A stretch of DNA of 13,371 bases from Naegleria gruberi (lineage: Eukaryota): assembly GCA_000004985.1 (NCBI GenBank), contig GG738995.1; one strand, given 5' to 3'. How positions within the stretch are numbered: position 1 is the first letter of the stretch; each line of letters begins with the position of its first letter. Made by a program: the position numbers and the translations under genes. Below are positions 1 through 13,371 of the stretch, one piece after another. Below the pieces are notes generated by a model. It saw only the letters and a program-made list of their open reading frames with translations, ran no database searches and had not been told where the DNA came from.

Positions 1-141
1 AAACACACATGCTTTTACATCTCAACACTTGGTAGATGTGTGTTGTATTTTTTGAAAATGTTTCAACAACAATTTATTTCGCGAAAGGTTTTGTGAGCCT
101 TAAAGTGTTGTTGATGGCTTTTTAGAATCACATGTATTTAT

Positions 142-281
142 TGCATGCATGTGGTGAAGCATCATGATGATGATCTAATTGTTTGTTTGATGCATGTATC
201 AAACTTGTAATCCATTGCATGCATCTAATAACACATCCATTCAACCTTCACATGCCGAATCATCATGGTTAAACATGCATG
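142..281. promoter_or_regulatory. Cluster of TGCATG-core motifs in the 5' flank of the large + ORF, including three 8-bp perfect palindromes (TGCATGCA/CATGCATG)
   Basis: Read directly from the sequence. tgcatgcatg at 142-151, tgcatg at 191-196, tgcatgcat at 216-224, catgcatg at 274-281. That is five TGCATG hexamers in 140 bp, against an expectation of ~0.05 for this base composition. CATGCATG and TGCATGCA are each their own reverse complement. TGCAT is the reported recognition core of APSES-type fungal regulators (Efg1 / Phd1 / Sok2 class). Confidence 0.35.
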
Positions 282-676: not shown

Positions 677-3600
677 ATGAAGAAGAACCAGAATTCCAAC
701 AACATGTCATTCATTGATGAAACTAGCAATGTTACAAAGAAAGCAAAAGTGAAAAAGAGAAATAAGGAATTGAAAATTAAACAATCGAGATTGAGAAAAC
801 CATTACAAAATGATAATTTATTGAAAAATTATTTTGAATTTGATAAGCAACAATTAACAGAAAGTGATTTGACTATTTACAAAATTATTAATNNNNNNNN
901 NNNNNNNNNNNNNNNNNNNNNNNNNNNNNNNNNNNNNNNNNNNNNNNNNNNNNNNNNNNNNNNNNNNNNNNNNNNNNNNNNNNNNNNNNNNNNNNNNNNN
1001 NNNNNNNNNNNNNNNNNNNNNNNNNNNNNNNNNNNNNNNNNNNNNNNNNNNNNNNNNNNNNNNNNNNNNNNNNNNNNNNNNNNNNNNNNNNNNNNNNNNN
1101 NNNNNNNNNNNNNNNNNNNNNNNNNNNNNNNNNNNNNNNNNNNNNNNNNNNNNNNNNNNNNNNNNNNNNNNNNNNNNNNNNNNNNNNNNNNNNNNNNNNN
1201 NNNNNNNNNNNNNNNNNNNNNNNNNNNNNNNNNNNNNNNNNNNNNNNNNNNNNNNNNNNNNNNNNNNNNNNNNNNNNNNNNNNNNNNNNNNNNNNNNNNN
1301 NNNNNNNNNNNNNNNNNNNNNNNNNNNNNNNNNNNNNNNNNNNNNNNNNNNNNNNNNNNNNNNNNNNNNNNNNNNNNNNNNNNNNNNNNNNNNNNNNNNN
1401 NNNNNNNNNNNNNNNNNNNNNNNNNNNNNNNNNNNNNNNNNNNNNNNNNNNNNNNNNNNNNNNNNNNNNNNNNNNNNNNNNNNNNNNNNNNNNNNNNNNN
1501 NNNNNNNNNNNNNNNNNNNNNNNNNNNNNNNNNNNNNNNNNNNNNNNNNNNNNNNNNNNNNNNNNNNNNNNNNNNNNNNNNNNNNNNNNNNNNNNNNNNN
1601 NNNNNNNNNNNNNNNNNNNNNNNNNNNNNNNNNNNNNNNNNNNNNNNNNNNNNNNNNNNNNNNNNNNNNNNNNNNNNNNNNNNNNNNNNNNNNNNNNNNN
1701 NNNNNNNNNNNNNNNNNNNNNNNNNNNNNNNNNNNNNNNNNNNNNNNNNNNNNNNNNNNNNNNNNNNNNNNNNNNNNNNNNNNNNNNNNNNNNNNNNNNN
1801 NNNNNNNNNNNNNNNNNNNNNNNNNNNNNNNNNNNNNNNNNNNNNNNNNNNNNNNNNNNNNNNNNNNNNNNNNNNNNNNNNNNNNNNNNNNNNNNNNNNN
1901 NNNNNNNNNNNNNNNNNNNNNNNNNNNNNNNNNNNNNNNNNNNNNNNNNNNNNNNNNNNNNNNNNNNNNNNNNNNNNNNNNNNNNNNNNNNNNNNNNNNN
2001 NNNNNNNNNNNNNNNNNNNNNNNNNNNNNNNNNNNNNNNNNNNNNNNNNNNNNNNNNNNNNNNNNNNNNNNNNNNNNNNNNNNNNNNNNNNNNNNNNNNN
2101 NNNNNNNNNNNNNNNNNNNNNNNNNNNNNNNNNNNNNNNNNNNNNNNNNNNNNNNNNNNNNNNNNNNNNNNNNNNNNNNNNNNNNNNNNNNNNNNNNNNN
2201 NNNNNNNNNNNNNNNNNNNNNNNNNNNNNNNNNNNNNNNNNNNNNNNNNNNNNNNNNNNNNNNNNNNNNNNNNNNNNNNNNNNNNNNNNNNNNNNNNNNN
2301 NNNNNNNNNNNNNNNNNNNNNNNNNNNNNNNNNNNNNNNNNNNNNNNNNNNNNNNNNNNNNNNNNNNNNNNNNNNNNNNNNNNNNNNNNNNNNNNNNNNN
2401 NNNNNNNNNNNNNNNNNNNNNNNNNNNNNNNNNNNNNNNNNNNNNNNNNNNNNNNNNNNNNNNNNNNNNNNNNNNNNNNNNNNNNNNNNNNNNNNNNNNN
2501 NNNNNNNNNNNNNNNNNNNNNNNNNNNNNNNNNNNNNNNNNNNNNNNNNNNNNNNNNNNNNNNNNNNNNNNNNNNNNNNNNNNNNNNNNNNNNNNNNNNN
2601 NNNNNNNNNNNNNNNNNNNNNNNNNNNNNNNNNNNNNNNNNNNNNNNNNNNNNNNNNNNNNNNNNNNNNNNNNNNNNNNNNNNNNNNNNNNNNNNNNNNN
2701 NNNNNNNNNNNNNNNNNNNNNNNNNNNNNNNNNNNNNNNNNNNNNNNNNNNNNNNNNNNNNNNNNNNNNNNNNNNNNNNNNNNNNNNNNNNNNNNNNNNN
2801 NNNNNNNNNNNNNNNNNNNNNNNNNNNNNNNNNNNNNNNNNNNNNNNNNNNNNNNNNNNNNNNNNNNNNNNNNNNNNNNNNNNNNNNNNNNNNNNNNNNN
2901 NNNNNNNNNNNNNNNNNNNNNNNNNNNNNNNNNNNNNNNNNNNNNNNNNNNNNNNNNNNNNNNNNNNNNNNNNNNNNNNNNNNNNNNNNNNNNNNNNNNN
3001 NNNNNNNNNNNNNNNNNNNNNNNNNNNNNNNNNNNNNNNNNNNNNNNNNNNNNNNNNNNNNNNNNNNNNNNNNNNNNNNNNNNNNNNNNNNNNNNNNNNN
3101 NNNNNNNNNNNNNNNNNNNNNNNNNNNNNNNNNNNNNNNNNNNNNNNNNNNNNNNNNNNNNNNNNNNNNNNNNNNNNNNNNNNNNNNNNNNNNNNNNNNN
3201 NNNNNNNNNNNNNNNNNNNNNNNNNNNNNNNNNNNNNNNNNNNNNNNNNNNNNNNNNNNNNNNNNNNNNNNNNNNNNNNNNNNNNNNNNNNNNNNNNNNN
3301 NNNNNNNNNNNNNNNNNNNNNNNNNNNNNNNNNNNNNNNNNNNNNNNNNNNNNNNNNNNNNNNNNNNNNNNNNNNNNNNNNNNNNNNNNNNNNNNNNNNN
3401 NNNNNNNNNNNNNNNNNNNNNNNNNNNNNNNNNNNNNNNNNNNNNNNNNNNNNNNNNNNNNNNNNNNNNNNNNNNNNNNNNNNNNNNNNNNNNNNNNNNN
3501 NNNNNNNNNNNNNNNNNNNNNNNNNNNNNNNNNNNNNNNNNNNNNNNNNNNNNNNNNNNNNNNNNNNNNNNNNNNNNNNNNNNNNNNNNNNNNNNNNNNN

Positions 3601-5476
3601 NNNNNNNNNNNNNNNNNNNNNNNNNNNNNNNNNNNNNNNNNNNNNNNNNNNNNNNNNNNNNNNNNNNNNNNNNNNNNNNNNNNNNNNNNNNNNNNNNNNN
3701 NNNNNNNNNNNNNNNNNNNNNNNNNNNNNNNNNNNNNNNNNNNNNNNNNNNNNNNNNNNNNNNNNNNNNNNNNNNNNNNNNNNNNNNNNNNNNNNNNNNN
3801 NNNNNNNNNNNNNNNNNNNNNNNNNNNNNNNNNNNNNNNNNNNNNNNNNNNNNNNNNNNNNNNNNNNNNNNNNNNNNNNNNNNNNNNNNNNNNNNNNNNN
3901 NNNNNNNNNNNNNNNNNNNNNNNNNNNNNNNNNNNNNNNNNNNNNNNNNNNNNNNNNNNNNNNNNNNNNNNNNNNNNNNNNNNNNNNNNNNNNNNNNNNN
4001 NNNNNNNNNNNNNNNNNNNNNNNNNNNNNNNNNNNNNNNNNNNNNNNNNNNNNNNNNNNNNNNNNNNNNNNNNNNNNNNNNNNNNNNNNNNNNNNNNNNN
4101 NNNNNNNNNNNNNNNNNNNNNNNNNNNNNNNNNNNNNNNNNNNNNNNNNNNNNNNNNNNNNNNNNNNNNNNNNNNNNNNNNNNNNNNNNNNNNNNNNNNN
4201 NNNNNNNNNNNNNNNNNNNNNNNNNNNNNNNNNNNNNNNNNNNNNNNNNNNNNNNNNNNNNNNNNNNNNNNNNNNNNNNNNNNNNNNNNNNNNNNNNNNN
4301 NNNNNNNNNNNNNNNNNNNNNNNNNNNNNNNNNNNNNNNNNNNNNNNNNNNNNNNNNNNNNNNNNNNNNNNNNNNNNNNNNNNNNNNNNNNNNNNNNNNN
4401 NNNNNNNNNNNNNNNNNNNNNNNNNNNNNNNNNNNNNNNNNNNNNNNNNNNNNNNNNNNNNNNNNNNNNNNNNNNNNNNNNNNNNNNNNNNNNNNNNNNN
4501 NNNNNNNNNNNNNNNNNNNNNNNNNNNNNNNNNNNNNNNNNNNNNNNNNNNNNNNNNNNNNNNNNNNNNNNNNNNNNNNNNNNNNNNNNNNNNNNNNNNN
4601 NNNNNNNNNNNNNNNNNNNNNNNNNNNNNNNNNNNNNNNNNNNNNNNNNNNNNNNNNNNNNNNNNNNNNNNNNNNNNNNNNNNNNNNNNNNNNNNNNNNN
4701 NNNNNNNNNNNNNNNNNNNNNNNNNNNNNNNNNNNNNNNNNNNNNNNNNNNNNNNNNNNNNNNNNNNNNNNNNNNNNNNNNNNNNNNNNNNNNNNNNNNN
4801 NNNNNNNNNNNNNNNNNNNNNNNNNNNNNNNNNNNNNNNNNNNNNNNNNNNNNNNNNNNNNNNNNNNNNNNNNNNNNNNNNNNNNNNNNNNNNNNNNNNN
4901 NNNNNNNNNNNNNNNNNNNNNNNNNNNNNNNNNNNNNNNNNNNNNNNNNNNNNNNNNNNNNNNNNNNNNNNNNNNNNNNNNNNNNNNNNNNNNNNNNNNN
5001 NNNNNNNNNNNNNNNNNNNNNNNNNNNNNNNNNNNNNNNNNNNNNNNNNNNNNNNNNNNNNNNNNNNNNNNNNNNNNNNNNNNNNNNNNNNNNNNNNNNN
5101 NNNNNNNNNNNNNNNNNNNNNNNNNNNNNNNNNNNNNNNNNNNNNNNNNNNNNNNNNNNNNNNNNNNNNNNNNNNNNNNNNNNNNNNNNNNNNNNNNNNN
5201 NNNNNNNNNNNNNNNNNNNNNNNNNNNNNNNNNNNNNNNNNNNNNNNNNNNNNNNNNNNNNNNNNNNNNNNNNNNNNNNNNNNNNNNNNNNNNNNNNNNN
5301 NNNNNNNNNNNNNNNNNNNNNNNNNNNNNNNNNNNNNNNNNNNNNNNNNNNNNNNNNNNNNNNNNNNNNNNNNNNNNNNNNNNNNNNNNNNNNNNNNNNN
5401 NNNNNNNNNNNNNNNNNNNNNNNNNNNNNNNNNNNNNNNNNNNNNNTCAATACTATTAAAAAACAGTTTATTCTAA
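677..5476 (+). CDS. Large + strand ORF, partially visible. Only the N-terminal 72 codons (677-892) and a putative last 10 codons (5447-5476) are readable, and the rest is N-masked. The N-terminus is Lys/Arg-rich and NLS-like (KKAKVKKRNKELKIKQSRLRKP). Product unknown.
   Basis: ATG at 677 is the first ATG after an in-frame TAA at 650-652. The frame stays open for 72 codons until the mask begins. Mask length (4554) is divisible by 3, so the track frame continues to TAA at 5474-5476, but frame continuity across the mask cannot be verified. Composition (K/N/S/Q-rich) matches the other genes here. Confidence 0.45.
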   Translation: MKKNQNSNNMSFIDETSNVTKKAKVKKRNKELKIKQSRLRKPLQNDNLLKNYFEFDKQQLTESDLTIYKIINXXXXXXXXXXXXXXXXXXXXXXXXXXXXXXXXXXXXXXXXXXXXXXXXXXXXXXXXXXXXXXXXXXXXXXXXXXXXXXXXXXXXXXXXXXXXXXXXXXXXXXXXXXXXXXXXXXXXXXXXXXXXXXXXXXXXXXXXXXXXXXXXXXXXXXXXXXXXXXXXXXXXXXXXXXXXXXXXXXXXXXXXXXXXXXXXXXXXXXXXXXXXXXXXXXXXXXXXXXXXXXXXXXXXXXXXXXXXXXXXXXXXXXXXXXXXXXXXXXXXXXXXXXXXXXXXXXXXXXXXXXXXXXXXXXXXXXXXXXXXXXXXXXXXXXXXXXXXXXXXXXXXXXXXXXXXXXXXXXXXXXXXXXXXXXXXXXXXXXXXXXXXXXXXXXXXXXXXXXXXXXXXXXXXXXXXXXXXXXXXXXXXXXXXXXXXXXXXXXXXXXXXXXXXXXXXXXXXXXXXXXXXXXXXXXXXXXXXXXXXXXXXXXXXXXXXXXXXXXXXXXXXXXXXXXXXXXXXXXXXXXXXXXXXXXXXXXXXXXXXXXXXXXXXXXXXXXXXXXXXXXXXXXXXXXXXXXXXXXXXXXXXXXXXXXXXXXXXXXXXXXXXXXXXXXXXXXXXXXXXXXXXXXXXXXXXXXXXXXXXXXXXXXXXXXXXXXXXXXXXXXXXXXXXXXXXXXXXXXXXXXXXXXXXXXXXXXXXXXXXXXXXXXXXXXXXXXXXXXXXXXXXXXXXXXXXXXXXXXXXXXXXXXXXXXXXXXXXXXXXXXXXXXXXXXXXXXXXXXXXXXXXXXXXXXXXXXXXXXXXXXXXXXXXXXXXXXXXXXXXXXXXXXXXXXXXXXXXXXXXXXXXXXXXXXXXXXXXXXXXXXXXXXXXXXXXXXXXXXXXXXXXXXXXXXXXXXXXXXXXXXXXXXXXXXXXXXXXXXXXXXXXXXXXXXXXXXXXXXXXXXXXXXXXXXXXXXXXXXXXXXXXXXXXXXXXXXXXXXXXXXXXXXXXXXXXXXXXXXXXXXXXXXXXXXXXXXXXXXXXXXXXXXXXXXXXXXXXXXXXXXXXXXXXXXXXXXXXXXXXXXXXXXXXXXXXXXXXXXXXXXXXXXXXXXXXXXXXXXXXXXXXXXXXXXXXXXXXXXXXXXXXXXXXXXXXXXXXXXXXXXXXXXXXXXXXXXXXXXXXXXXXXXXXXXXXXXXXXXXXXXXXXXXXXXXXXXXXXXXXXXXXXXXXXXXXXXXXXXXXXXXXXXXXXXXXXXXXXXXXXXXXXXXXXXXXXXXXXXXXXXXXXXXXXXXXXXXXXXXXXXXXXXXXXXXXXXXXXXXXXXXXXXXXXXXXXXXXXXXXXXXXXXXXXXXXXXXXXXXXXXXXXXXXXXXXXXXXXXXXXXXXXXXXXXXXXXXXXXXXXXXXXXXXXXXXXXXXXXXXXXXXXXXXXXXXXXXXXXXXXXXXXXXXXXXXXXXXXXXXXXXXXXXXXXXXXXXXXXXXXXXXXXXXXXXXXXXXXXXXXXXXXXXXXXXXXXXXXXXXXXXXXXXXXXXXXXXXXXXXXXXXXXXXXXXXXXXXXXSILLKNSLF
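893..5446. other. N-masked block, 4554 nt. No sequence information.
   Basis: Run of n. Length is a multiple of 3. Confidence 0.99.
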
Positions 5477-6526
5477 ATGAAATGTCCAAACTGGAAAGTG
5501 AAATTCCATTTGAGTTTGTGCTGGATTTGTATTGGCTGAATTCTTTCTCTTTTGATATTTTCTTCTTCTTTTCAAATGTTTTGGATTTGAAATTACAATA
5601 CAATTTTTGAGTGGAGTTTTGAATGTTGTTGATAATGAACTGTTATTACCAATTGAGGATACATTACTTGTAGATGATGAGGAGGATGAAATTGAGATTT
5701 TTCTCTTTTCTGATTCGAATGAAGATACATTAGAAATCTTTCTCTTTCTCTTTAGAATACGATTATCATTGAATGTATTGTTTACATTAGTTTGTTGTTG
5801 GAGTGGCATCATGGATGTTTCAATTGATGATGATGGTGGTGATTGATCCACATATTGTTGATAAGGATTCTTAATGCTCATCAGAAATTGATATGATTCT
5901 AAATTGGGTAAAAGTACCTTATCAGCAGTGTCAGTATTAGAAATGGTATTGGTCAGGCTATTTTCGTTATGGTTATTGAATGGTTGAGGAGGTGAGGTGT
6001 TAAGAGTCAGAGATAATGTTTCTGTTGGTGATAGGAACAGTTGAGTTGATGGTTGAGGTGATGGAAATACAATATGGGATTTGGATAAGTGTGGTGGAGT
6101 GTCCTTCATATCATCATCATGATCATCAATAGGATTCATAACAGTTGAGCTGATGTTAGTACATTGGATATTATTGAAGGCTGACATTTGTTGAATAGAA
6201 GGCTTGTCATTAGGCTTTCTATTAAATAATTGTTGCTTTGGATTTGTCATCATCTTTAATAATTCCCAACTCTGCATAAAATCAATAACATCAAGATTCA
6301 GACTTGGTTCAACACATTGATTGTTAATTGAGTAGTTTGAGAATGATGATGAAAATTGAGTGACCATTCCACAAAGAACATCAACTGTACAGGTATGAGC
6401 AGGAGAGGAATATTCATTTATCCAACTTGAAGTCGAGTTATTGTTCATCATAATGTTTGTTTTTTTGAGAATATTCATTGAATATTTCTTCTGCATAAAC
6501 TCCAAAGAGAATTGCATCTCGCCCAA
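5447..6526. repeat. Tandem duplication, copy 1: gene A plus 21 nt of its 3' flank
   Basis: Colinear with 6878-7727. The offset is 1431 nt at the stop codons and 1419 nt at the MQSW codon. The 3'-flank fragments also match: actattaaaaaacagtttattc vs atattattaaaaaaacaatttattc. Confidence 0.8.
5468..6517 (-). CDS. Gene A, the complete tandem paralog. 349 aa, S/T/N/Q-rich protein with a bipartite-NLS-like KRKRKISNVSSFESEKRK motif and a C-terminal basic cluster KHLKRRRKYQKRK, ending ...MEFHFPVWTFHLE. Function unknown, probably nuclear.
   Basis: Long open frame on the minus strand, with stop TAA at 5470-5468. The track's start at 6526 is TTG, and the first ATG is at 6517-6515 (MQFSLEF...). An in-frame TGA lies 4 codons upstream of the TTG. 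The protein is ~75% identical to the visible part of gene B, and every indel between them is a multiple of 3 nt. This shows the frame is under coding constraint. Confidence 0.75.
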   Translation of the reverse strand: MQFSLEFMQKKYSMNILKKTNIMMNNNSTSSWINEYSSPAHTCTVDVLCGMVTQFSSSFSNYSINNQCVEPSLNLDVIDFMQSWELLKMMTNPKQQLFNRKPNDKPSIQQMSAFNNIQCTNISSTVMNPIDDHDDDMKDTPPHLSKSHIVFPSPQPSTQLFLSPTETLSLTLNTSPPQPFNNHNENSLTNTISNTDTADKVLLPNLESYQFLMSIKNPYQQYVDQSPPSSSIETSMMPLQQQTNVNNTFNDNRILKRKRKISNVSSFESEKRKISISSSSSSTSNVSSIGNNSSLSTTFKTPLKNCIVISNPKHLKRRRKYQKRKNSANTNPAQTQMEFHFPVWTFHLE

Positions 6527-6686
6527 TTTATTCTCTCATATTTCCAATACTTGATGTACTTGAAGAATAATGTTAGTAATTGAGGTCCTTAAAAATACAA
6601 AATCCTTAAACAACTATGCTGTGGCACTCCTTCTTAATAGAATGTCAGTAAGTGTTAGGGTAAATTCTGGTTCATCGTATTTCGAA

Positions 6687-6692
6687 ATTATA
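6687..6692 (-). promoter_or_regulatory. TATAAT on the minus strand, ~170 bp upstream of gene A's ATG
   Basis: Plus-strand attata at 6687-6692. It is the only TATA-like element in the 381-bp gap between the B stop and the A start. Confidence 0.2.
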
Positions 6693-6839
6693 CAATCTCA
6701 CTATTACTTGATCATAAATTGTATATTCTTTACAGAAGTTTATTTTCACTTTCATTATTTAATTCAATAAAATTGAAAATTGAAGATGAATTTAATAAAT
6801 TATCTGCTTCTTCAAGTGGTAATGAATAATTATCTTGTT

Positions 6840-6901
6840 GAATATTAAATTATTCGGACACACAGAGAATATAAAACAAATATTATTAAAAAAACAATTT
6901 A
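6840..6901 (-). terminator. Putative 3'-end formation signals of gene B
   Basis: Minus-strand sense reads ...TTTCATTTAGAATAAATTGTTTTTTTAATAATATTTGTTTTATATTCTCTGTG. AATAAA overlaps the stop codon and is followed by a TTTTATAT (TATATA-type) efficiency-like element. This is the yeast-type poly(A) signal pattern. Confidence 0.3.
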
Positions 6902-7727
6902 TTCTAAATGAAAAGTCCAAACTGGAAAGTGAAATTCCATTTGAGTTTGAGCAGGATTTGTATTGGCTGAATTCTTTCTCTTTTGATATTTTCTTCTTCT
7001 TTTCAAATGTTTTGGATTTGAAATTACAATACAATTATTGAATGATTGTTGTGAGTGTACATTTGTTGATAATGAACTATTATTACCAATTGAGGATGAA
7101 TTACTTGAACATGTTGTAGGTGGTGTGGTGGATGAAATTGAGGTTTTTCTCTTTTCTGATTCGAATGAAGATACATTAGAAATCTTTCTCTTTCTCTTTA
7201 GAATACGATTATCATCCTTCTTGTTGAATGTATTGTTTACATTAGTTTGTTGTTGGAGTGACATCATGGATATATCATTTGATGGTGGTGGTGATTGATC
7301 ATAATGTTCATGATAAGGATTCTTGGGAAATTGATATGATTCTAAATTGGTTAAAAGTACCTTATCAGCAGTGTCAGTATTAGAAATGGTATTGGCCAGC
7401 CTATTTTCAATAGCATTAGCATTGAATGGTTGCTGATGAGGAGATGGTGATGTGTTAAGTGTCAGAAGAGATAATGTCTCAGTTGATGATGGTAATACAA
7501 TATGGCATGTGGATGAGTGTGATGGAGTGCACTTAATATCAGCATCAATAGAATTCATAACAGTTGAGGTGATTTTAGTACATTGGATATTATTGAAGGC
7601 TGACATTTGTTGAATAGAAGGCTTGTCAAAAGGCTTTCTATTAAATAATTGTTGCTTTGGAGTTGTCATCATCTTTAATAATTCCCAACTCTGCATAAAC
7701 TCAATAACATCAAGATTTAGACTGTCA
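6878..7727. repeat. Tandem duplication, copy 2: visible part of gene B plus its 3' flank. Continues into mask 2.
   Basis: Same alignment as copy 1. Confidence 0.8.
6899..7727 (-). CDS. Gene B, the tandem paralog of gene A. The C-terminal 276 codons are visible and the 5' end runs into mask 2. Same architecture as A: conserved FMQSWELLKMMT.PKQQLFNRKP block, ANTISNTDTADKVLL block, KRKRK-X10-KRK, and an identical 45-aa C-terminus.
   Basis: Stop TAA at 6901-6899. The frame is open all the way to the mask edge (…DSLNLDVIEFMQSWELLK…). It is codon-colinear with gene A, with in-frame indels only. The track's start at 7696 is merely the first visible ATG. Homology to A residues 70-83 continues upstream of it. 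Confidence 0.7.
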
Positions 7728-10700
7728 NNNNNNNNNNNNNNNNNNNNNNNNNNNNNNNNNNNNNNNNNNNNNNNNNNNNNNNNNNNNNNNNNNNNNNNNN
7801 NNNNNNNNNNNNNNNNNNNNNNNNNNNNNNNNNNNNNNNNNNNNNNNNNNNNNNNNNNNNNNNNNNNNNNNNNNNNNNNNNNNNNNNNNNNNNNNNNNNN
7901 NNNNNNNNNNNNNNNNNNNNNNNNNNNNNNNNNNNNNNNNNNNNNNNNNNNNNNNNNNNNNNNNNNNNNNNNNNNNNNNNNNNNNNNNNNNNNNNNNNNN
8001 NNNNNNNNNNNNNNNNNNNNNNNNNNNNNNNNNNNNNNNNNNNNNNNNNNNNNNNNNNNNNNNNNNNNNNNNNNNNNNNNNNNNNNNNNNNNNNNNNNNN
8101 NNNNNNNNNNNNNNNNNNNNNNNNNNNNNNNNNNNNNNNNNNNNNNNNNNNNNNNNNNNNNNNNNNNNNNNNNNNNNNNNNNNNNNNNNNNNNNNNNNNN
8201 NNNNNNNNNNNNNNNNNNNNNNNNNNNNNNNNNNNNNNNNNNNNNNNNNNNNNNNNNNNNNNNNNNNNNNNNNNNNNNNNNNNNNNNNNNNNNNNNNNNN
8301 NNNNNNNNNNNNNNNNNNNNNNNNNNNNNNNNNNNNNNNNNNNNNNNNNNNNNNNNNNNNNNNNNNNNNNNNNNNNNNNNNNNNNNNNNNNNNNNNNNNN
8401 NNNNNNNNNNNNNNNNNNNNNNNNNNNNNNNNNNNNNNNNNNNNNNNNNNNNNNNNNNNNNNNNNNNNNNNNNNNNNNNNNNNNNNNNNNNNNNNNNNNN
8501 NNNNNNNNNNNNNNNNNNNNNNNNNNNNNNNNNNNNNNNNNNNNNNNNNNNNNNNNNNNNNNNNNNNNNNNNNNNNNNNNNNNNNNNNNNNNNNNNNNNN
8601 NNNNNNNNNNNNNNNNNNNNNNNNNNNNNNNNNNNNNNNNNNNNNNNNNNNNNNNNNNNNNNNNNNNNNNNNNNNNNNNNNNNNNNNNNNNNNNNNNNNN
8701 NNNNNNNNNNNNNNNNNNNNNNNNNNNNNNNNNNNNNNNNNNNNNNNNNNNNNNNNNNNNNNNNNNNNNNNNNNNNNNNNNNNNNNNNNNNNNNNNNNNN
8801 NNNNNNNNNNNNNNNNNNNNNNNNNNNNNNNNNNNNNNNNNNNNNNNNNNNNNNNNNNNNNNNNNNNNNNNNNNNNNNNNNNNNNNNNNNNNNNNNNNNN
8901 NNNNNNNNNNNNNNNNNNNNNNNNNNNNNNNNNNNNNNNNNNNNNNNNNNNNNNNNNNNNNNNNNNNNNNNNNNNNNNNNNNNNNNNNNNNNNNNNNNNN
9001 NNNNNNNNNNNNNNNNNNNNNNNNNNNNNNNNNNNNNNNNNNNNNNNNNNNNNNNNNNNNNNNNNNNNNNNNNNNNNNNNNNNNNNNNNNNNNNNNNNNN
9101 NNNNNNNNNNNNNNNNNNNNNNNNNNNNNNNNNNNNNNNNNNNNNNNNNNNNNNNNNNNNNNNNNNNNNNNNNNNNNNNNNNNNNNNNNNNNNNNNNNNN
9201 NNNNNNNNNNNNNNNNNNNNNNNNNNNNNNNNNNNNNNNNNNNNNNNNNNNNNNNNNNNNNNNNNNNNNNNNNNNNNNNNNNNNNNNNNNNNNNNNNNNN
9301 NNNNNNNNNNNNNNNNNNNNNNNNNNNNNNNNNNNNNNNNNNNNNNNNNNNNNNNNNNNNNNNNNNNNNNNNNNNNNNNNNNNNNNNNNNNNNNNNNNNN
9401 NNNNNNNNNNNNNNNNNNNNNNNNNNNNNNNNNNNNNNNNNNNNNNNNNNNNNNNNNNNNNNNNNNNNNNNNNNNNNNNNNNNNNNNNNNNNNNNNNNNN
9501 NNNNNNNNNNNNNNNNNNNNNNNNNNNNNNNNNNNNNNNNNNNNNNNNNNNNNNNNNNNNNNNNNNNNNNNNNNNNNNNNNNNNNNNNNNNNNNNNNNNN
9601 NNNNNNNNNNNNNNNNNNNNNNNNNNNNNNNNNNNNNNNNNNNNNNNNNNNNNNNNNNNNNNNNNNNNNNNNNNNNNNNNNNNNNNNNNNNNNNNNNNNN
9701 NNNNNNNNNNNNNNNNNNNNNNNNNNNNNNNNNNNNNNNNNNNNNNNNNNNNNNNNNNNNNNNNNNNNNNNNNNNNNNNNNNNNNNNNNNNNNNNNNNNN
9801 NNNNNNNNNNNNNNNNNNNNNNNNNNNNNNNNNNNNNNNNNNNNNNNNNNNNNNNNNNNNNNNNNNNNNNNNNNNNNNNNNNNNNNNNNNNNNNNNNNNN
9901 NNNNNNNNNNNNNNNNNNNNNNNNNNNNNNNNNNNNNNNNNNNNNNNNNNNNNNNNNNNNNNNNNNNNNNNNNNNNNNNNNNNNNNNNNNNNNNNNNNNN
10001 NNNNNNNNNNNNNNNNNNNNNNNNNNNNNNNNNNNNNNNNNNNNNNNNNNNNNNNNNNNNNNNNNNNNNNNNNNNNNNNNNNNNNNNNNNNNNNNNNNNN
10101 NNNNNNNNNNNNNNNNNNNNNNNNNNNNNNNNNNNNNNNNNNNNNNNNNNNNNNNNNNNNNNNNNNNNNNNNNNNNNNNNNNNNNNNNNNNNNNNNNNNN
10201 NNNNNNNNNNNNNNNNNNNNNNNNNNNNNNNNNNNNNNNNNNNNNNNNNNNNNNNNNNNNNNNNNNNNNNNNNNNNNNNNNNNNNNNNNNNNNNNNNNNN
10301 NNNNNNNNNNNNNNNNNNNNNNNNNNNNNNNNNNNNNNNNNNNNNNNNNNNNNNNNNNNNNNNNNNNNNNNNNNNNNNNNNNNNNNNNNNNNNNNNNNNN
10401 NNNNNNNNNNNNNNNNNNNNNNNNNNNNNNNNNNNNNNNNNNNNNNNNNNNNNNNNNNNNNNNNNNNNNNNNNNNNNNNNNNNNNNNNNNNNNNNNNNNN
10501 NNNNNNNNNNNNNNNNNNNNNNNNNNNNNNNNNNNNNNNNNNNNNNNNNNNNNNNNNNNNNNNNNNNNNNNNNNNNNNNNNNNNNNNNNNNNNNNNNNNN
10601 NNNNNNNNNNNNNNNNNNNNNNNNNNNNNNNNNNNNNNNNNNNNNNNNNNNNNNNNNNNNNNNNNNNNNNNNNNNNNNNNNNNNNNNNNNNNNNNNNNNN

Positions 10701-11837
10701 NNNNNNNNNNNNNNNNNNNNNNNNNNNNNNNNNNNNNNNNNNNNNNNNNNNNNNNNNNNNNNNNNNNNNNNNNNNNNNNNNNNNNNNNNNNNNNNNNNNN
10801 NNNNNNNNNNNNNNNNNNNNNNNNNNNNNNNNNNNNNNNNNNNNNNNNNNNNNNNNNNNNNNNNNNNNNNNNNNNNNNNNNNNNNNNNNNNNNNNNNNNN
10901 NNNNNNNNNNNNNNNNNNNNNNNNNNNNNNNNNNNNNNNNNNNNNNNNNNNNNNNNNNNNNNNNNNNNNNNNNNNNNNNNNNNNNNNNNNNNNNNNNNNN
11001 NNNNNNNNNNNNNNNNNNNNNNNNNNNNNNNNNNNNNNNNNNNNNNNNNNNNNNNNNNNNNNNNNNNNNNNNNNNNNNNNNNNNNNNNNNNNNNNNNNNN
11101 NNNNNNNNNNNNNNNNNNNNNNNNNNNNNNNNNNNNNNNNNNNNNNNNNNNNNNNNNNNNNNNNNNNNNNNNNNNNNNNNNNNNNNNNNNNNNNNNNNNN
11201 NNNNNNNNNNNNNNNNNNNNNNNNNNNNNNNNNNNNNNNNNNNNNNNNNNNNNNNNNNNNNNNNNNNNNNNNNNNNNNNNNNNNNNNNNNNNNNNNNNNN
11301 NNNNNNNNNNNNNNNNNNNNNNNNNNNNNNNNNNNNNNNNNNNNNNNNNNNNNNNNNNNNNNNNNNNNNNNNNNNNNNNNNNNNNNNNNNNNNNNNNNNN
11401 NNNNNNNNNNNNNNNNNNNNNNNNNNNNNNNNNNNNNNNNNNNNNNNNNNNNNNNNNNNNNNNNNNNNNNNNNNNNNNNNNNNNNNNNNNNNNNNNNNNN
11501 NNNNNNNNNNNNNNNNNNNNNNNNNNNNNNNNNNNNNNNNNNNNNNNNNNNNNNNNNNNNNNNNNNNNNNNNNNNNNNNNNNNNNNNNNNNNNNNNNNNN
11601 NNNNNNNNNNNNNNNNNNNNNNNNNNNNNNNNNNNNNNNNNNNNNNNNNNNNNNNNNNNNNNNNNNNNNNNNNNNNNNNNNNNNNNNNNNNNNNNNNNNN
11701 NNNNNNNNNNNNNNNNNNNNNNNNNNNNNNNNNNNNNNNNNNNNNNNNNNNNNNNNNNNNNNNNNNNNNNNNNNNNNNNNNNNNNNNNNNNNNNNNNNNN
11801 NNNNNNNNNNNNNNNNNNNNNNNNNNNNNNNNNNNNN
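7728..11837. other. N-masked block, 4110 nt. No sequence information.
   Basis: Run of n. Length is a multiple of 3. Confidence 0.99.
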
Positions 11838-11891
11838 AATAATTACTGTAAAGTCACCATTTCATCTTGTAGTTATTCTAATAGTAAGTAA
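11838..11891 (+). CDS. Possible last 17 codons (…NNYCKVTISSCSYSNSK*) of a + strand gene whose body lies inside mask 2
   Basis: The frame is open from the mask edge to TAA at 11889-11891. A TGTATAAAA poly(A) efficiency-type element follows ~80 nt downstream. The frame cannot be verified across the mask. Confidence 0.2.
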   Translation, partial: NNYCKVTISSCSYSNSK

Positions 11892-11965
11892 TATTGGTTT
11901 TGTTGTGCATTGATGTTATGGATTGATGATGAAATTTCCAACAATGACTTGAAGAATGTTCGTAC

Positions 11966-11980
11966 TTTGTATAAAAATTG
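11966..11980 (+). terminator. TGTATAAAA / TATAAA yeast-type poly(A) efficiency/positioning element
   Basis: tttgtataaaaattg, read from the sequence, ~80 nt after the TAA at 11891. Confidence 0.2.
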
Positions 11981-12066
11981 ACTTTTGTGATTTGTTTACT
12001 TGATTTGAATGATCATAAAAGATAGTACACCCTACCTACCTTGAACAACTTTACAATATTTTCTAA

Positions 12067-12082
12067 TACTACTACTACTAAC
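12067..12082. repeat. (TAC)4 microsatellite ending in TACTAAC
   Basis: tactactactactaac, read directly. Confidence 0.7.
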
Positions 12083-13371
12083 AATTAAACCAAAGAAGTT
12101 GACAATGTCTCCTTTACAGTCAATTAATATTAATTGTTTGGAATTGCAACTACGCAATTAGAGTAATTTTTTTGCTATTTGAAATATTGTTCCTTTTAAC
12201 AGAATGCTGTTGTTGGGTGAGATTTTTATAGTACGGTTCATTTCAGGCAAGGAAATCTATCAACTTGTTGTGGAAAGGTTCAAATTGATGCTTAATAGAT
12301 AGGTTGTGTGGATTGTTTCCAATTATTAAAATTAGAGGATGCTAGCATTTTCAAACTGTATTGGAAAATCTATTTATGGTTGTAGATATATTGGAGAATC
12401 AGTTAAAGGCACACTTGGTACTAAAAGTATTACAACGGACATCTTTGCAATTCTTTCAATGAGAATTATGGACAAGATGGTTTCCTTACCACAAGTTTAT
12501 TTTGAATAATATGTTCGACGGAGCAATTTCTCAAGTATTTAACTAGTACATTGAACTAATAATCACTGTTAGTGGTTTGTTGAAAATACTGTTTGGTTTA
12601 TCGAACAAAAATAATCACAACCACTACTTGATAGCGTAAGTATGTAATAATGCCAACACCGTTTACAAACGCATAATGCATATGGTTCACAGCTACATAG
12701 GTAAGTTATGCAGTCATATTTCCTCCAACATAGTGTATTCTTGCTACCAAACACAACTATTCGCTAATAAAATTGTTGATGGTAACTGTTGTTGTGGATG
12801 TGGGTGAATCATTAATTATCGAAATTTGTTGTTTTGGTGATTGTGCAGTTAATCAGGTCTTAGAGTATCATTGCCCGTTCCGTCGGTAAATTGTGTAAGG
12901 AAGATGCTTATCACACTATTCAGAATAGAGTTGGTTATGGTTGTATCATCGAATTATCTACAATACGCATGATTCTCAATAGTTTCGTTAATTGAGTGTA
13001 ATTATGTGGTACTAAATGGTATCTTGTAAATTATCAGGGTTTATATGGTTGATAAATAAGAACTATGCCAATTGTACTATATTTCATTTGTTTTGCTAAG
13101 TTGTTGTCGAATATCATTAGGAATCTCGCTCGTAGGTAACACAATTTTTAACACAAAAACGAATTTAACAGTTTTAGTCTCTTGTTGTGTTTTAAGTGAT
13201 ATGGAGATGATTATGAAGTTATTTACAATGCAAATATTTATGTATAGTAGATCTATTTACTGTGTGGAAAAAATCTAGATCCCCAAGCAATGGAGCTTTC
13301 TTTCCAAATAAAAGAATAAGAGTATTGAATGTTGGCTTATCACCAGCACCAACAATAACTTTCTACATTGT

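What the first reader, a model, noticed from the sequence alone, without database searches (positions are those of the whole stretch)
7728..11837. The ~1.42-1.43 kb duplication period predicts further copies of the unit inside mask 2
Copy offsets are 1431 nt at the stop codons and 1419 nt at the MQSW codon. If the duplication is simply tandem, B's counterpart of A's start codon would lie near 7950, making B also ~350 aa. The 4.1-kb mask could then hold up to ~2-3 more units. Alternatively, B is the 3' end of a much longer gene and A is a 5'-truncated duplicate that gained a new start. The in-frame TGA only 4 codons upstream of A's TTG/ATG would fit that second model. I also note that all three minus-strand frames are closed within 30 nt to the right of 11838. 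Any minus-strand gene extending through mask 2 must therefore start inside it.
Basis: inference. Interest (0 to 1): 0.5.

Follow-up and report, generated by a model that had tools for sequence, protein, structure and literature searches.

The report
Two-copy tandem gene duplication beside assembly gap
The window is a small, gap-ridden scaffold of the amoeba Naegleria gruberi carrying an ordinary two-copy tandem duplication of an uncharacterised gene, and sister scaffolds give no sign of the extra copies predicted to lie in the unreadable stretch.

Summary
The visible facts are correct. Copies A (5468-6517, minus) and B (6899-7727+, minus) are head-to-tail duplicates: 91% identical, offsets 1419-1458 nt, every coding indel a multiple of 3. 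Positions 7728-11837 are N in the window itself. The window is a whole 13,371-bp Naegleria gruberi NEG-M scaffold, and the public gene model on it (EFC35884) starts at the first Met below the N run, so the "mask" is most likely an assembly gap of estimated length.

The content was inferred from two larger sister scaffolds. Each has exactly one B-type gene next to one A-type gene. What precedes the B unit there is unrelated coding sequence, not another unit. It is annotated as one 798-aa gene (EFC38149) on one scaffold and as a separate 260-aa gene (EFC38099) on the other.

The sequence upstream of A's ATG (6745-6846) is a start-less relic of the B-type upstream exon. It is separated from A's main exon by about 360 nt that hold A's ATG.

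"More copies in mask 2" is therefore unsupported. "A is a 5'-truncated duplicate with a new start" is favoured. The proteins are Naegleria-only, predicted disordered, NLS-rich orphans. This is an ordinary finding of low interest.

The parts
5447..5467 (-). 3' flank of copy A. It is still homologous to the 3' flank of copy B (about 6877-6898). The homology runs into N run 1, so the downstream end of the repeat unit is not visible.
   Evidence: Alignment after the two TAA stop codons.
5468..6517 (-). Copy A: an intact 349-codon ORF plus stop. It is the allele or paralogue of N. gruberi EFC38150 (P0001, 99.1%) and EFC38101 (P0004, 94.9%).
   Evidence: No Pfam family.
6386..6749 (-). Segment of about 360 nt in copy A that separates the parts homologous to P0007 aa <=492 and aa >=493. 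It is the equivalent of the intron predicted in the 798-aa B-type model. It starts with GT (6749-6748). An in-phase AG lies at 6386-6385. It contains A's annotated ATG (6517) and the in-frame TGA (6536-6538).
   Evidence: tblastn coordinates and the sequence read. The intron status is an inference from a gene model.
6745..6846 (-). Relic of the B-type upstream exon in front of copy A (FNIQQDNYSLPLEEADNLLNSSSIFNFIELNNES). It has no ATG, and there is a stop codon immediately upstream.
   Evidence: P0007 aa 455-492, 74% identity, E = 1e-8. Frame translation.
6847..6877 (.). Zone that must contain the tandem-duplication junction. On one side is the upstream end of unit A. On the other is the 3' flank of B.
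   Evidence: Homology limits.
6899..7727 (-). Copy B, visible 3' part (275 codons plus stop). The frame is still open at the edge of the N run. The GenBank model EFC35884 (P0006, 235 aa) covers 6902-7606.
   Evidence: 96% identical to P0002 and to the P0007 C-terminus.
7728..11837 (.). Run of 4110 N, most likely a sized assembly gap. Content inferred by homology with P0007, assuming equal lengths: about 100 nt of remaining last exon of B, then about 360 nt of intron equivalent, then about 1.47 kb of upstream coding sequence (N-terminal module, low-complexity region, fucosyltransferase-stem-like piece). That would place a B start near 9.7 kb. About 2.2 kb remains unknown.
   Evidence: the N run. 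(sister-scaffold proteins). The layout is inference, not observation.
677..892 (+). Start of ORF X, convergent with A. Its 72 visible residues are paralogous to the N-terminal module of the long B-type model (P0007 aa 24-91, 70%).
893..5446 (.). Run of 4554 N (gap 1). It hides the rest of X and the downstream end of unit A.

Best explanation
The window is a complete 13,371-bp scaffold of Naegleria gruberi NEG-M. It consists of three short sequenced pieces joined by two N-filled gaps.

The locus carries a recent head-to-tail duplication of a unit of about 1.43 kb, present in two copies only. The unit comprises four parts:
- the last roughly 100-140 nt of an upstream exon;
- an intron-like segment of about 360 nt;
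- the large 3' exon, which encodes a disordered, basic-cluster-rich orphan protein ending in KHLKRRRKYQKRKNSANTNPAQTQMEFHFPVWTFHLE;
- at least 21 nt of 3' flank.

B is the parental copy. Upstream of the unit it continues into unrelated coding sequence: an N-terminal module, a low-complexity stretch, and a piece copied from a neighbouring fucosyltransferase's stem region. A is the derived copy. It lost access to those upstream exons, because its relic exon has no ATG and is preceded by a stop. It is read instead from an ATG inside the former intron-like segment, which gives a 349-aa protein with 44 new N-terminal residues.

Both copies remain open and probably functional. The unreadable 4.1 kb most likely holds B's 5' portion and its upstream intergenic DNA or a neighbouring gene, not further units.

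What is shown: the duplication, the relic, the intact ORFs and the sister-scaffold gene content. What is inferred: the content of the gap, the reality of the intron, and which copy is parental. The nuclear, regulatory or adaptor-like role of the protein is a guess from its sequence motifs only.
For: Organism and scaffold identity:
- A is 99% identical to N. gruberi EFC38150.
- P0006/EFC35884 lies on a contig of exactly 13,371 bp and matches 7606-6902 at 100%.
- GC is 29-31%, against 33% for the genome.

The duplication:
- Searches show it directly.
- All 10 coding indels are multiples of 3, while the single 1-nt indel lies after the stop codon.
- dS is about 0.11 and dN/dS about 0.8 overall, falling to about 0.35 in the last 62 codons.

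Two copies per locus:
- Consecutive accessions EFC38149 (798 aa, B-type) and EFC38150 (A-type) lie on the 243,952-bp scaffold. EFC38099, EFC38100 and EFC38101 lie on the 261,328-bp scaffold.
- No other close copies were found among the annotated proteins in the searched collections, which include the N. gruberi set.

Non-unit sequence upstream of B:
- P0007 aa 1-454 has no similarity to the unit.
- It does match ORF X's N-terminus and the fucosyltransferase P0008.

Relic exon before A.

No unit sequence in the flank to the right of the gap.

A 360-nt intron is plausible for a genome with a mean intron length of 203 bp and 1.7 exons per gene (PMC8296547).

AlphaFold2 mean pLDDT is 34.6, with a single helix over the QSW motif. 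There is no Pfam or PDB relative.
Against: - The gap itself was never read, so this haplotype could differ in copy number from the sister scaffolds.
- The three scaffolds are mosaics of one another, which shows that the locus is recombinationally active.
- The 798-aa model is an unvalidated automatic prediction. The other sister scaffold splits it into 260-aa and 287-aa models.
- All other family members are short, 158-197 aa. B may therefore be a short gene, and the 'relic exon' merely duplicated upstream non-coding DNA.
- GT...AG borders at a predicted intron are there by construction of the gene model. In A the exactly homologous acceptor position reads CT, not AG.
- Unannotated copies on the sister scaffolds cannot be excluded from protein data alone.
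- Both N runs are multiples of 3, and run 1 is in frame with the ATG at 677. That would be a 1-in-27 coincidence for true gaps.
Confidence: 0.62

Rival explanations
1. A and B are both complete short genes of about 290-350 aa, so the event was a whole-gene tandem duplication that included the promoter. Under this reading the 798-aa model on the sister scaffold is an over-merged prediction. It would fuse an independent upstream gene (the 260-aa N-terminal-module protein), a fucosyltransferase-derived fragment and the B gene. There are still only two copies.
For: - On the 261,328-bp scaffold the same region is annotated as two genes, P0005 (260 aa) and P0002 (287 aa).
- All other family members are short and carry their own Met 10-35 residues before the LNLD..QSW motif: P0003 197 aa, P0010 162 aa, P0011 188 aa, P0012 158 aa.
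- The chimeric look of P0007, with 51 residues 88% identical to a glycosyltransferase stem, is typical of merged gene models.
Against: - The conserved V.CG.V segment sits directly after the predicted splice junction in P0007, with no Met before it.
- P0002 starts downstream of that conserved segment, so it looks 5'-truncated.
- The relic before A keeps an open frame and differs from P0007 only by in-frame gaps.
- If P0007 aa 256-491 is one exon, a 236-codon open frame has a chance probability of about 1e-8 at this base composition.
Confidence: 0.3
2. One reading: the gap hides one to three further head-to-tail copies of the 1.43-kb unit, so the locus is a tandem array of 3-5 units in this haplotype.
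For: - The period is regular, and the gap is nominally long enough at 4110 nt.
- Repeats are a common cause of assembly gaps.
- The locus is polymorphic between scaffolds.
- A diverged family member, P0012, does lie a few genes away on the 243,952-bp scaffold.
Against: - Both sister scaffolds have two copies, with unrelated coding sequence directly upstream of B.
- No further members at 90% or higher identity exist among the annotated proteins in the searched collections.
- The flank to the right of the gap carries no unit sequence.
- By accession order, P0012 lies on the A side of the pair, away from gap 2. It is only about 45% identical, so it is not part of a periodic array.
Confidence: 0.06
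3. The A-B arrangement on this small scaffold is an assembly artefact: reads from two haplotypes or paralogous loci were wrongly stacked head to tail.
For: - The scaffold is 65% N and built from pieces of 892, 2281 and 1534 bp.
- The identities to the sister scaffolds are mosaic.
Against: - A and B lie on one continuous 2281-bp piece, 5447-7727.
- The same B-then-A adjacency is annotated independently on two large scaffolds.
- A and B differ by 9% and by many indels, and each has its own closest counterpart.
Confidence: 0.02

Closest known systems
Partial (5'-truncating) tandem gene duplication with recruitment of a new start codon from formerly non-coding sequence
   Same: There are two head-to-tail copies at 91% identity. 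The derived copy keeps only a start-less remnant of the upstream exon. Its ORF begins at an ATG inside the segment that is the predicted intron in the parental model, which adds 44 novel residues.
   Different: Transcript evidence is lacking. The parental 'long gene' rests on one automatic gene model that a sister scaffold contradicts.
N. gruberi predicted proteins NAEGRDRAFT_53197 (EFC38150), _53310 (EFC38101), _53196 (EFC38149), _74200 (EFC38100) and _76456 (EFC35884)
   Same: Copy A is 99.1% and 94.9% identical to the first two. Copy B is 96% identical to EFC38149 and EFC38100 and 100% identical to EFC35884, which is the model annotated on this very scaffold.
   Different: Copy A is not represented by an identical annotated protein: the closest has 3 substitutions. 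The public records call all of these 'predicted protein', with no family or function.
Short Naegleria-specific paralogues NAEGRDRAFT_71657 (EFC40497, 188 aa) and NAEGRDRAFT_74018 (EFC38153, 158 aa), plus metagenomic relatives P0003 and P0010
   Same: They share the same module set: the LNLD..DF.QSW helix (absent from the P0012 model, partial in P0010), a KKRK cluster, ISISS, and the invariant C-terminus HL.RRRKYQKRKN.A..NPAQ..MEF.FP.WTFH.E.
   Different: They are only 34-57% identical and much shorter. They are not arranged at a 1.43-kb period with A and B.
GT10 fucosyltransferase NAEGRDRAFT_81733 (EFC38095, PF00852)
   Same: 51 residues of its stem region (aa 146-196) are 88% identical to aa 400-450 of the long B-type model. 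It lies four gene models away on the same sister scaffold.
   Different: The catalytic domain is not shared, and P0007 has no Pfam hit. This is a copied fragment, not family membership.

Membership tests
Tandem array of three or more units with a 1.43-kb period | At least three head-to-tail copies at a constant period | tested here: not met
   Only two copies are present in the readable sequence, and the outer flanks carry none. The sister scaffolds carry two each. The gap itself cannot be read.
Partial tandem gene duplication (5'-truncated daughter copy) | Two adjacent same-strand copies with high nucleotide identity | tested here: met
   741/811 nt identical, offsets 1419-1458 nt.
Partial tandem gene duplication (5'-truncated daughter copy) | The daughter copy retains only a fragment of the parental upstream exon and cannot use the parental start | tested here: met
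   Window 6745-6846 matches P0007 aa 455-492. There is a stop directly upstream and no ATG in the relic.
Partial tandem gene duplication (5'-truncated daughter copy) | The parental gene extends beyond the duplication boundary | tested here: inconclusive
   This holds for model P0007 (798 aa). The other sister scaffold splits the region into P0005 and P0002. In the window this part is N.
Sized scaffold gap in a Sanger draft assembly | An N run in the public record that truncates gene models | tested here: met
   The contig length recorded for EFC35884 equals the window length. That model starts at the first Met (7606) below the N run, although the frame is open to 7727. I could not view the GenBank record itself.
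GT10 fucosyltransferase (PF00852) | The Glyco_transf_10 catalytic domain scores above the gathering threshold | tested here: not met
   P0008 scores 91.7 bits. P0007, A and B have no hit.
SR-25 nuclear splicing-associated protein (PF10500) | Score at or above the 40-bit gathering threshold | tested here: not met
   14.4 bits for A and 19.7 bits for P0011. These are compositional matches of basic/serine-rich stretches.

The most novel reading that the evidence does not exclude
After a partial tandem duplication, copy A became a new functional gene whose first 44 codons were recruited from a former intron. The parental copy B is itself a young chimera that captured a neighbouring fucosyltransferase's stem-coding fragment and an N-terminal module shared with ORF X. 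On this reading the locus is a compact natural example of stepwise gene birth by exon shuffling and intron exonisation, in a Naegleria-specific family of disordered nuclear proteins.
Probability: 0.25. Interest if true: 0.3.

Novelty: new member of a known kind. Interest (0 to 1): 0.1.

Why it matters
It matters little beyond annotation. The check shows three things:
- The 'mask' is an unreadable gap, so it is not a place where something can be discovered.
- The duplication has two copies.
- The three public versions of this locus are annotated inconsistently, as 235-, 287-, 260+287- and 798-aa models, and copy A on this scaffold has no identical protein in the collections searched.

The locus defines a small Naegleria-only protein family with a strikingly invariant C-terminal motif and no known function. 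It could serve as a minor example of new-gene formation by partial duplication, once transcript data are examined.

Tried and rejected
- Unmasking was impossible. The N runs are in the window itself.
- I tried to fetch sister-scaffold DNA with the look-up of encoding contigs for A, P0001, P0002 and P0007. None is on record.
- Two metagenome scans found nothing: a protein-pattern scan and an exact 33-mer shared by A and B.
- A viral-contig scan found no relatives, so there is no hint of a giant-virus origin.
- The search with full-length P0007 was swamped by low-complexity words. It returned only the fucosyltransferase fragment match.
- Pfam, PDB-sequence and AlphaFold2 gave no fold or family. 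I did not run a fold search because the model is meaningless at pLDDT 35.
- No tRNA, Rfam family or meaningful tandem repeat is present in the window.
- The long 'ORFs' through the N runs (677-5476, 888-5603, 7623-11891) are artefacts of translating N. I disregarded them.
- I considered the idea that the N runs are codon-aligned masks over real ORFs, since both lengths are multiples of 3. I judged it less likely than true gaps because of the truncated public gene model, but I could not exclude it.
- The bacterial-style promoter and terminator scan was not run, because it does not apply to a eukaryote.
Full report
**What the window is.**
Reading the window shows two runs of N, at 893-5446 (4554 nt) and 7728-11837 (4110 nt). 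Only 1-892, 5447-7727 and 11838-13371 are readable.

The minus-strand ORF A (5468-6517) is 99% identical to a 'predicted protein' of Naegleria gruberi. A cluster look-up shows that GenBank protein EFC35884.1 (P0006, 235 aa) lies on a contig of exactly 13,371 bp, which is the window length. That protein matches window 7606-6902 at 100%. The window is therefore one whole small scaffold of the N. gruberi NEG-M draft genome. GC is 29-31% here, against 33% for the genome (PMC8296547).

The public model P0006 begins at the first Met below the N run. Yet the frame is open to the very edge, and its homologues extend further. I therefore take the N runs to be sized assembly gaps in the public record, not masks that could be lifted. 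That is an inference, because I could not view the record. A small oddity argues the other way. Both runs are multiples of 3, and run 1 is in frame with the ATG at 677.

**Checking the observation.**
All the visible parts of the finding are correct.
- The repeat finder gives collinear direct-repeat blocks. The spacing is 1431 nt at the stop codons and 1419 nt at the MQSW region, with 1428-1458 nt in between.
- A gapped alignment gives 741/811 identical bases, 91.4%.
- The ten indels inside the coding region are all multiples of 3. The only 1-nt indel lies just after the stop codon.
- dS is about 0.11. dN/dS is about 0.8 overall and about 0.35 over the last 62 codons.
- The TGA upstream of A's start is there.
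- All three minus-strand frames are closed within 24 nt to the right of 11838.
- The unit has no significant match in either outer flank.

The region named in the finding, however, is pure N. Nothing can be observed in it.

**What can be said about the hidden part.**
I could not obtain Naegleria DNA from any collection, so I used the annotated proteins of sister scaffolds.

The cluster look-ups give this picture:
- On a 243,952-bp scaffold: EFC38149 (P0007, 798 aa, B-type C-terminus), then EFC38150 (P0001, A-type), and three models further on EFC38153 (P0012, a diverged 158-aa family member).
- On a 261,328-bp scaffold: EFC38095 (P0008, a GT10 fucosyltransferase), EFC38099 (P0005, 260 aa), EFC38100 (P0002, 287 aa, B-type) and EFC38101 (P0004, A-type).

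Each sister locus therefore has exactly one B-type and one A-type gene, side by side. Window B is 96% identical to the C-termini of P0007 and P0002. Window A is 99.1% identical to P0001 and 94.9% to P0004. Searches of 5.8 billion clustered proteins, and a profile search of 1.84 billion representatives, found no other close copy. They found only short, diverged paralogues and metagenomic relatives, all Naegleria-like.

In P0007, 525 residues precede the point where window B enters the gap. Those residues are not another unit:
- aa 24-91 is an N-terminal module that is 70% identical to the start of ORF X at 677-892 in this same window.
- aa 256-399 is low-complexity sequence.
- aa 400-450 is 88% identical to the stem region of the neighbouring fucosyltransferase P0008.
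- aa 455-492 precedes the unit's main exon.

P0005 equals P0007 aa 1-254 at 95%. The other sister scaffold therefore annotates the same sequence as two genes.

It does. tblastn places P0007 aa 455-492 on window 6846-6745 (minus strand), with 74% identity and E = 1e-8. P0007 aa 493 onward resumes at 6385.

In A, the two homologous blocks are separated by about 360 nt. That segment starts with GT (6749-6748) and is followed by an in-phase AG at 6386-6385. The exactly homologous acceptor position reads CT in A. The segment contains A's ATG (6517) and the upstream in-frame TGA. The relic block itself (FNIQQDNYSLPLEEADNLLNSSSIFNFIELNNES) has a stop directly upstream and no ATG.

The duplicated unit therefore spans the full 1.43 kb:
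- the tail of an upstream exon;
- an intron-like segment;
- the large 3' exon;
- at least 21 nt of 3' flank.

The junction lies somewhere in 6847-6877. A 360-nt intron is unremarkable for N. gruberi, which has a mean intron length of 203 bp and 1.7 exons per gene (PMC8296547). The GT...AG borders are a property of the gene model, so they are not independent proof of splicing.

**Best explanation.**
This is a two-copy tandem duplication.

B is the parental copy. Its unit is preceded by unrelated coding sequence, either as upstream exons of one gene of about 800 aa (model P0007) or as a separate gene (models P0005 and P0002).

A is a derived copy. It lost the parental upstream exons, and it is read from a new ATG in the former intron-like segment, giving 44 novel N-terminal residues. 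Its ORF is intact in all three haplotype-like versions: window A, P0001 and P0004.

If lengths match P0007, the gap would hold:
- about 100 nt of B's last exon;
- about 360 nt of intron equivalent;
- about 1.47 kb of upstream coding sequence, which puts B's ATG near 9.7 kb;
- about 2.2 kb of unknown sequence.

I put about 0.6 on this overall picture and about 0.3 on the variant in which B is a short complete gene and the 798-aa model is over-merged. The variant is supported by the fact that every other family member is short, 158-197 aa. I put about 0.06 on hidden extra copies and about 0.02 on an assembly artefact. The artefact is unlikely because A and B lie on one continuous sequenced piece, and the same adjacency is annotated on two large scaffolds.

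**What the protein is.**
No Pfam family reaches threshold, and no PDB sequence relative exists. AlphaFold2 gives mean pLDDT 34.6, with one helix over VIDFMQSWELLKMM.

The family alignment shows:
- a conserved LNLD..DF.QSW helix;
- a KRKRK/KKRK cluster;
- an ISISS serine tract;
- an almost invariant C-terminus, C..SN.KHLKRRRKYQKRKNSA..NPAQTQMEF.FPVWTFHLE.

My mechanistic guess, which is inference only, is an intrinsically disordered nuclear protein. The two basic clusters would act as nuclear-localisation or nucleic-acid-contact signals, and the aromatic C-terminal motif would act as a docking peptide. The family appears restricted to Naegleria-like organisms. It has no relatives in viral contigs.

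**Comparison with what is known, and verdict.**
The genes are already in GenBank as uncharacterised predicted proteins. The phenomenon is a recent tandem, probably partial, gene duplication in a heterozygous protist draft assembly. Naegleria is regarded as a heterozygous diploid (PMC9928731). This is ordinary.

The headline prediction of more copies in the mask is unsupported.

Two mildly interesting details remain. One is the apparent recruitment of intron-derived sequence as A's N-terminus. The other is the chimeric make-up of the long B-type model. Both need transcript data. Interest is low.

Noticed in passing
window 677-892 (+): ORF X starts with a module (MSFIDETSNVT...IKQSRLRKPLQNDNLLKNYFEFDKQQ...DLTIYKIIN). 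It is 70% identical to the N-terminus of the long B-type model P0007 and 82% identical to P0009 (EFC35725, a 'partial' protein on an 8,928-bp scaffold). P0009 breaks off within 6 residues of where X runs into N run 1. This looks like a second Naegleria-specific module of unknown function, and a spot that repeatedly breaks the assembly.
   Followed up: partly
sister-scaffold proteins P0007 aa 400-450 and P0008 aa 146-196 (the equivalent would lie inside window gap 7728-11837): A 51-residue stretch of the long B-type model is 88% identical to the stem region of a GT10 fucosyltransferase encoded four gene models away. The similarity ends at the same residue (NNRL) in both proteins, and P0007 continues with a Val (GTx) codon. 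This suggests a copied first exon that stops at a splice donor.
   Followed up: partly
window 893-5446 and 7728-11837: Both N runs are exact multiples of 3 (1518 and 1370 codons), and run 1 is in frame with the ATG at 677. The minus-strand frame aligned with run 2 hits TGA at 7727-7725 immediately. This is probably coincidence if the runs are assembly gaps, but it would also fit codon-aligned masking.
   Followed up: partly
window copies A and B versus P0001, P0004, P0002 and P0007: The identities are mosaic. A is 99.1% identical to the 243,952-bp scaffold's copy and 94.9% to the other scaffold's copy. B is 96% identical to both sister copies, which are themselves 99.65% identical to each other. 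That makes three haplotype-like versions in an organism regarded as diploid. It suggests gene conversion, recombination, or a segmentally duplicated locus.
   Followed up: partly
sister scaffold of 243,952 bp (EFC38153 = P0012); L001 1958-2560: A diverged short family member (158 aa) lies three gene models beyond the A-type gene, on the side away from gap 2. A related 197-aa protein (63% identical to P0012) sits on a 2.6-kb ENA metagenome contig. The family therefore forms a loose local cluster as well as the tight A/B pair.
   Followed up: partly
window 140-163, 214-237 and about 275-287: An ATTGCATGCAT(G/C) motif with a TGCATGCA palindromic core is repeated two to three times about 400-540 nt upstream of ORF X's ATG. 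It could be a promoter element, or it could be chance.
   Followed up: no
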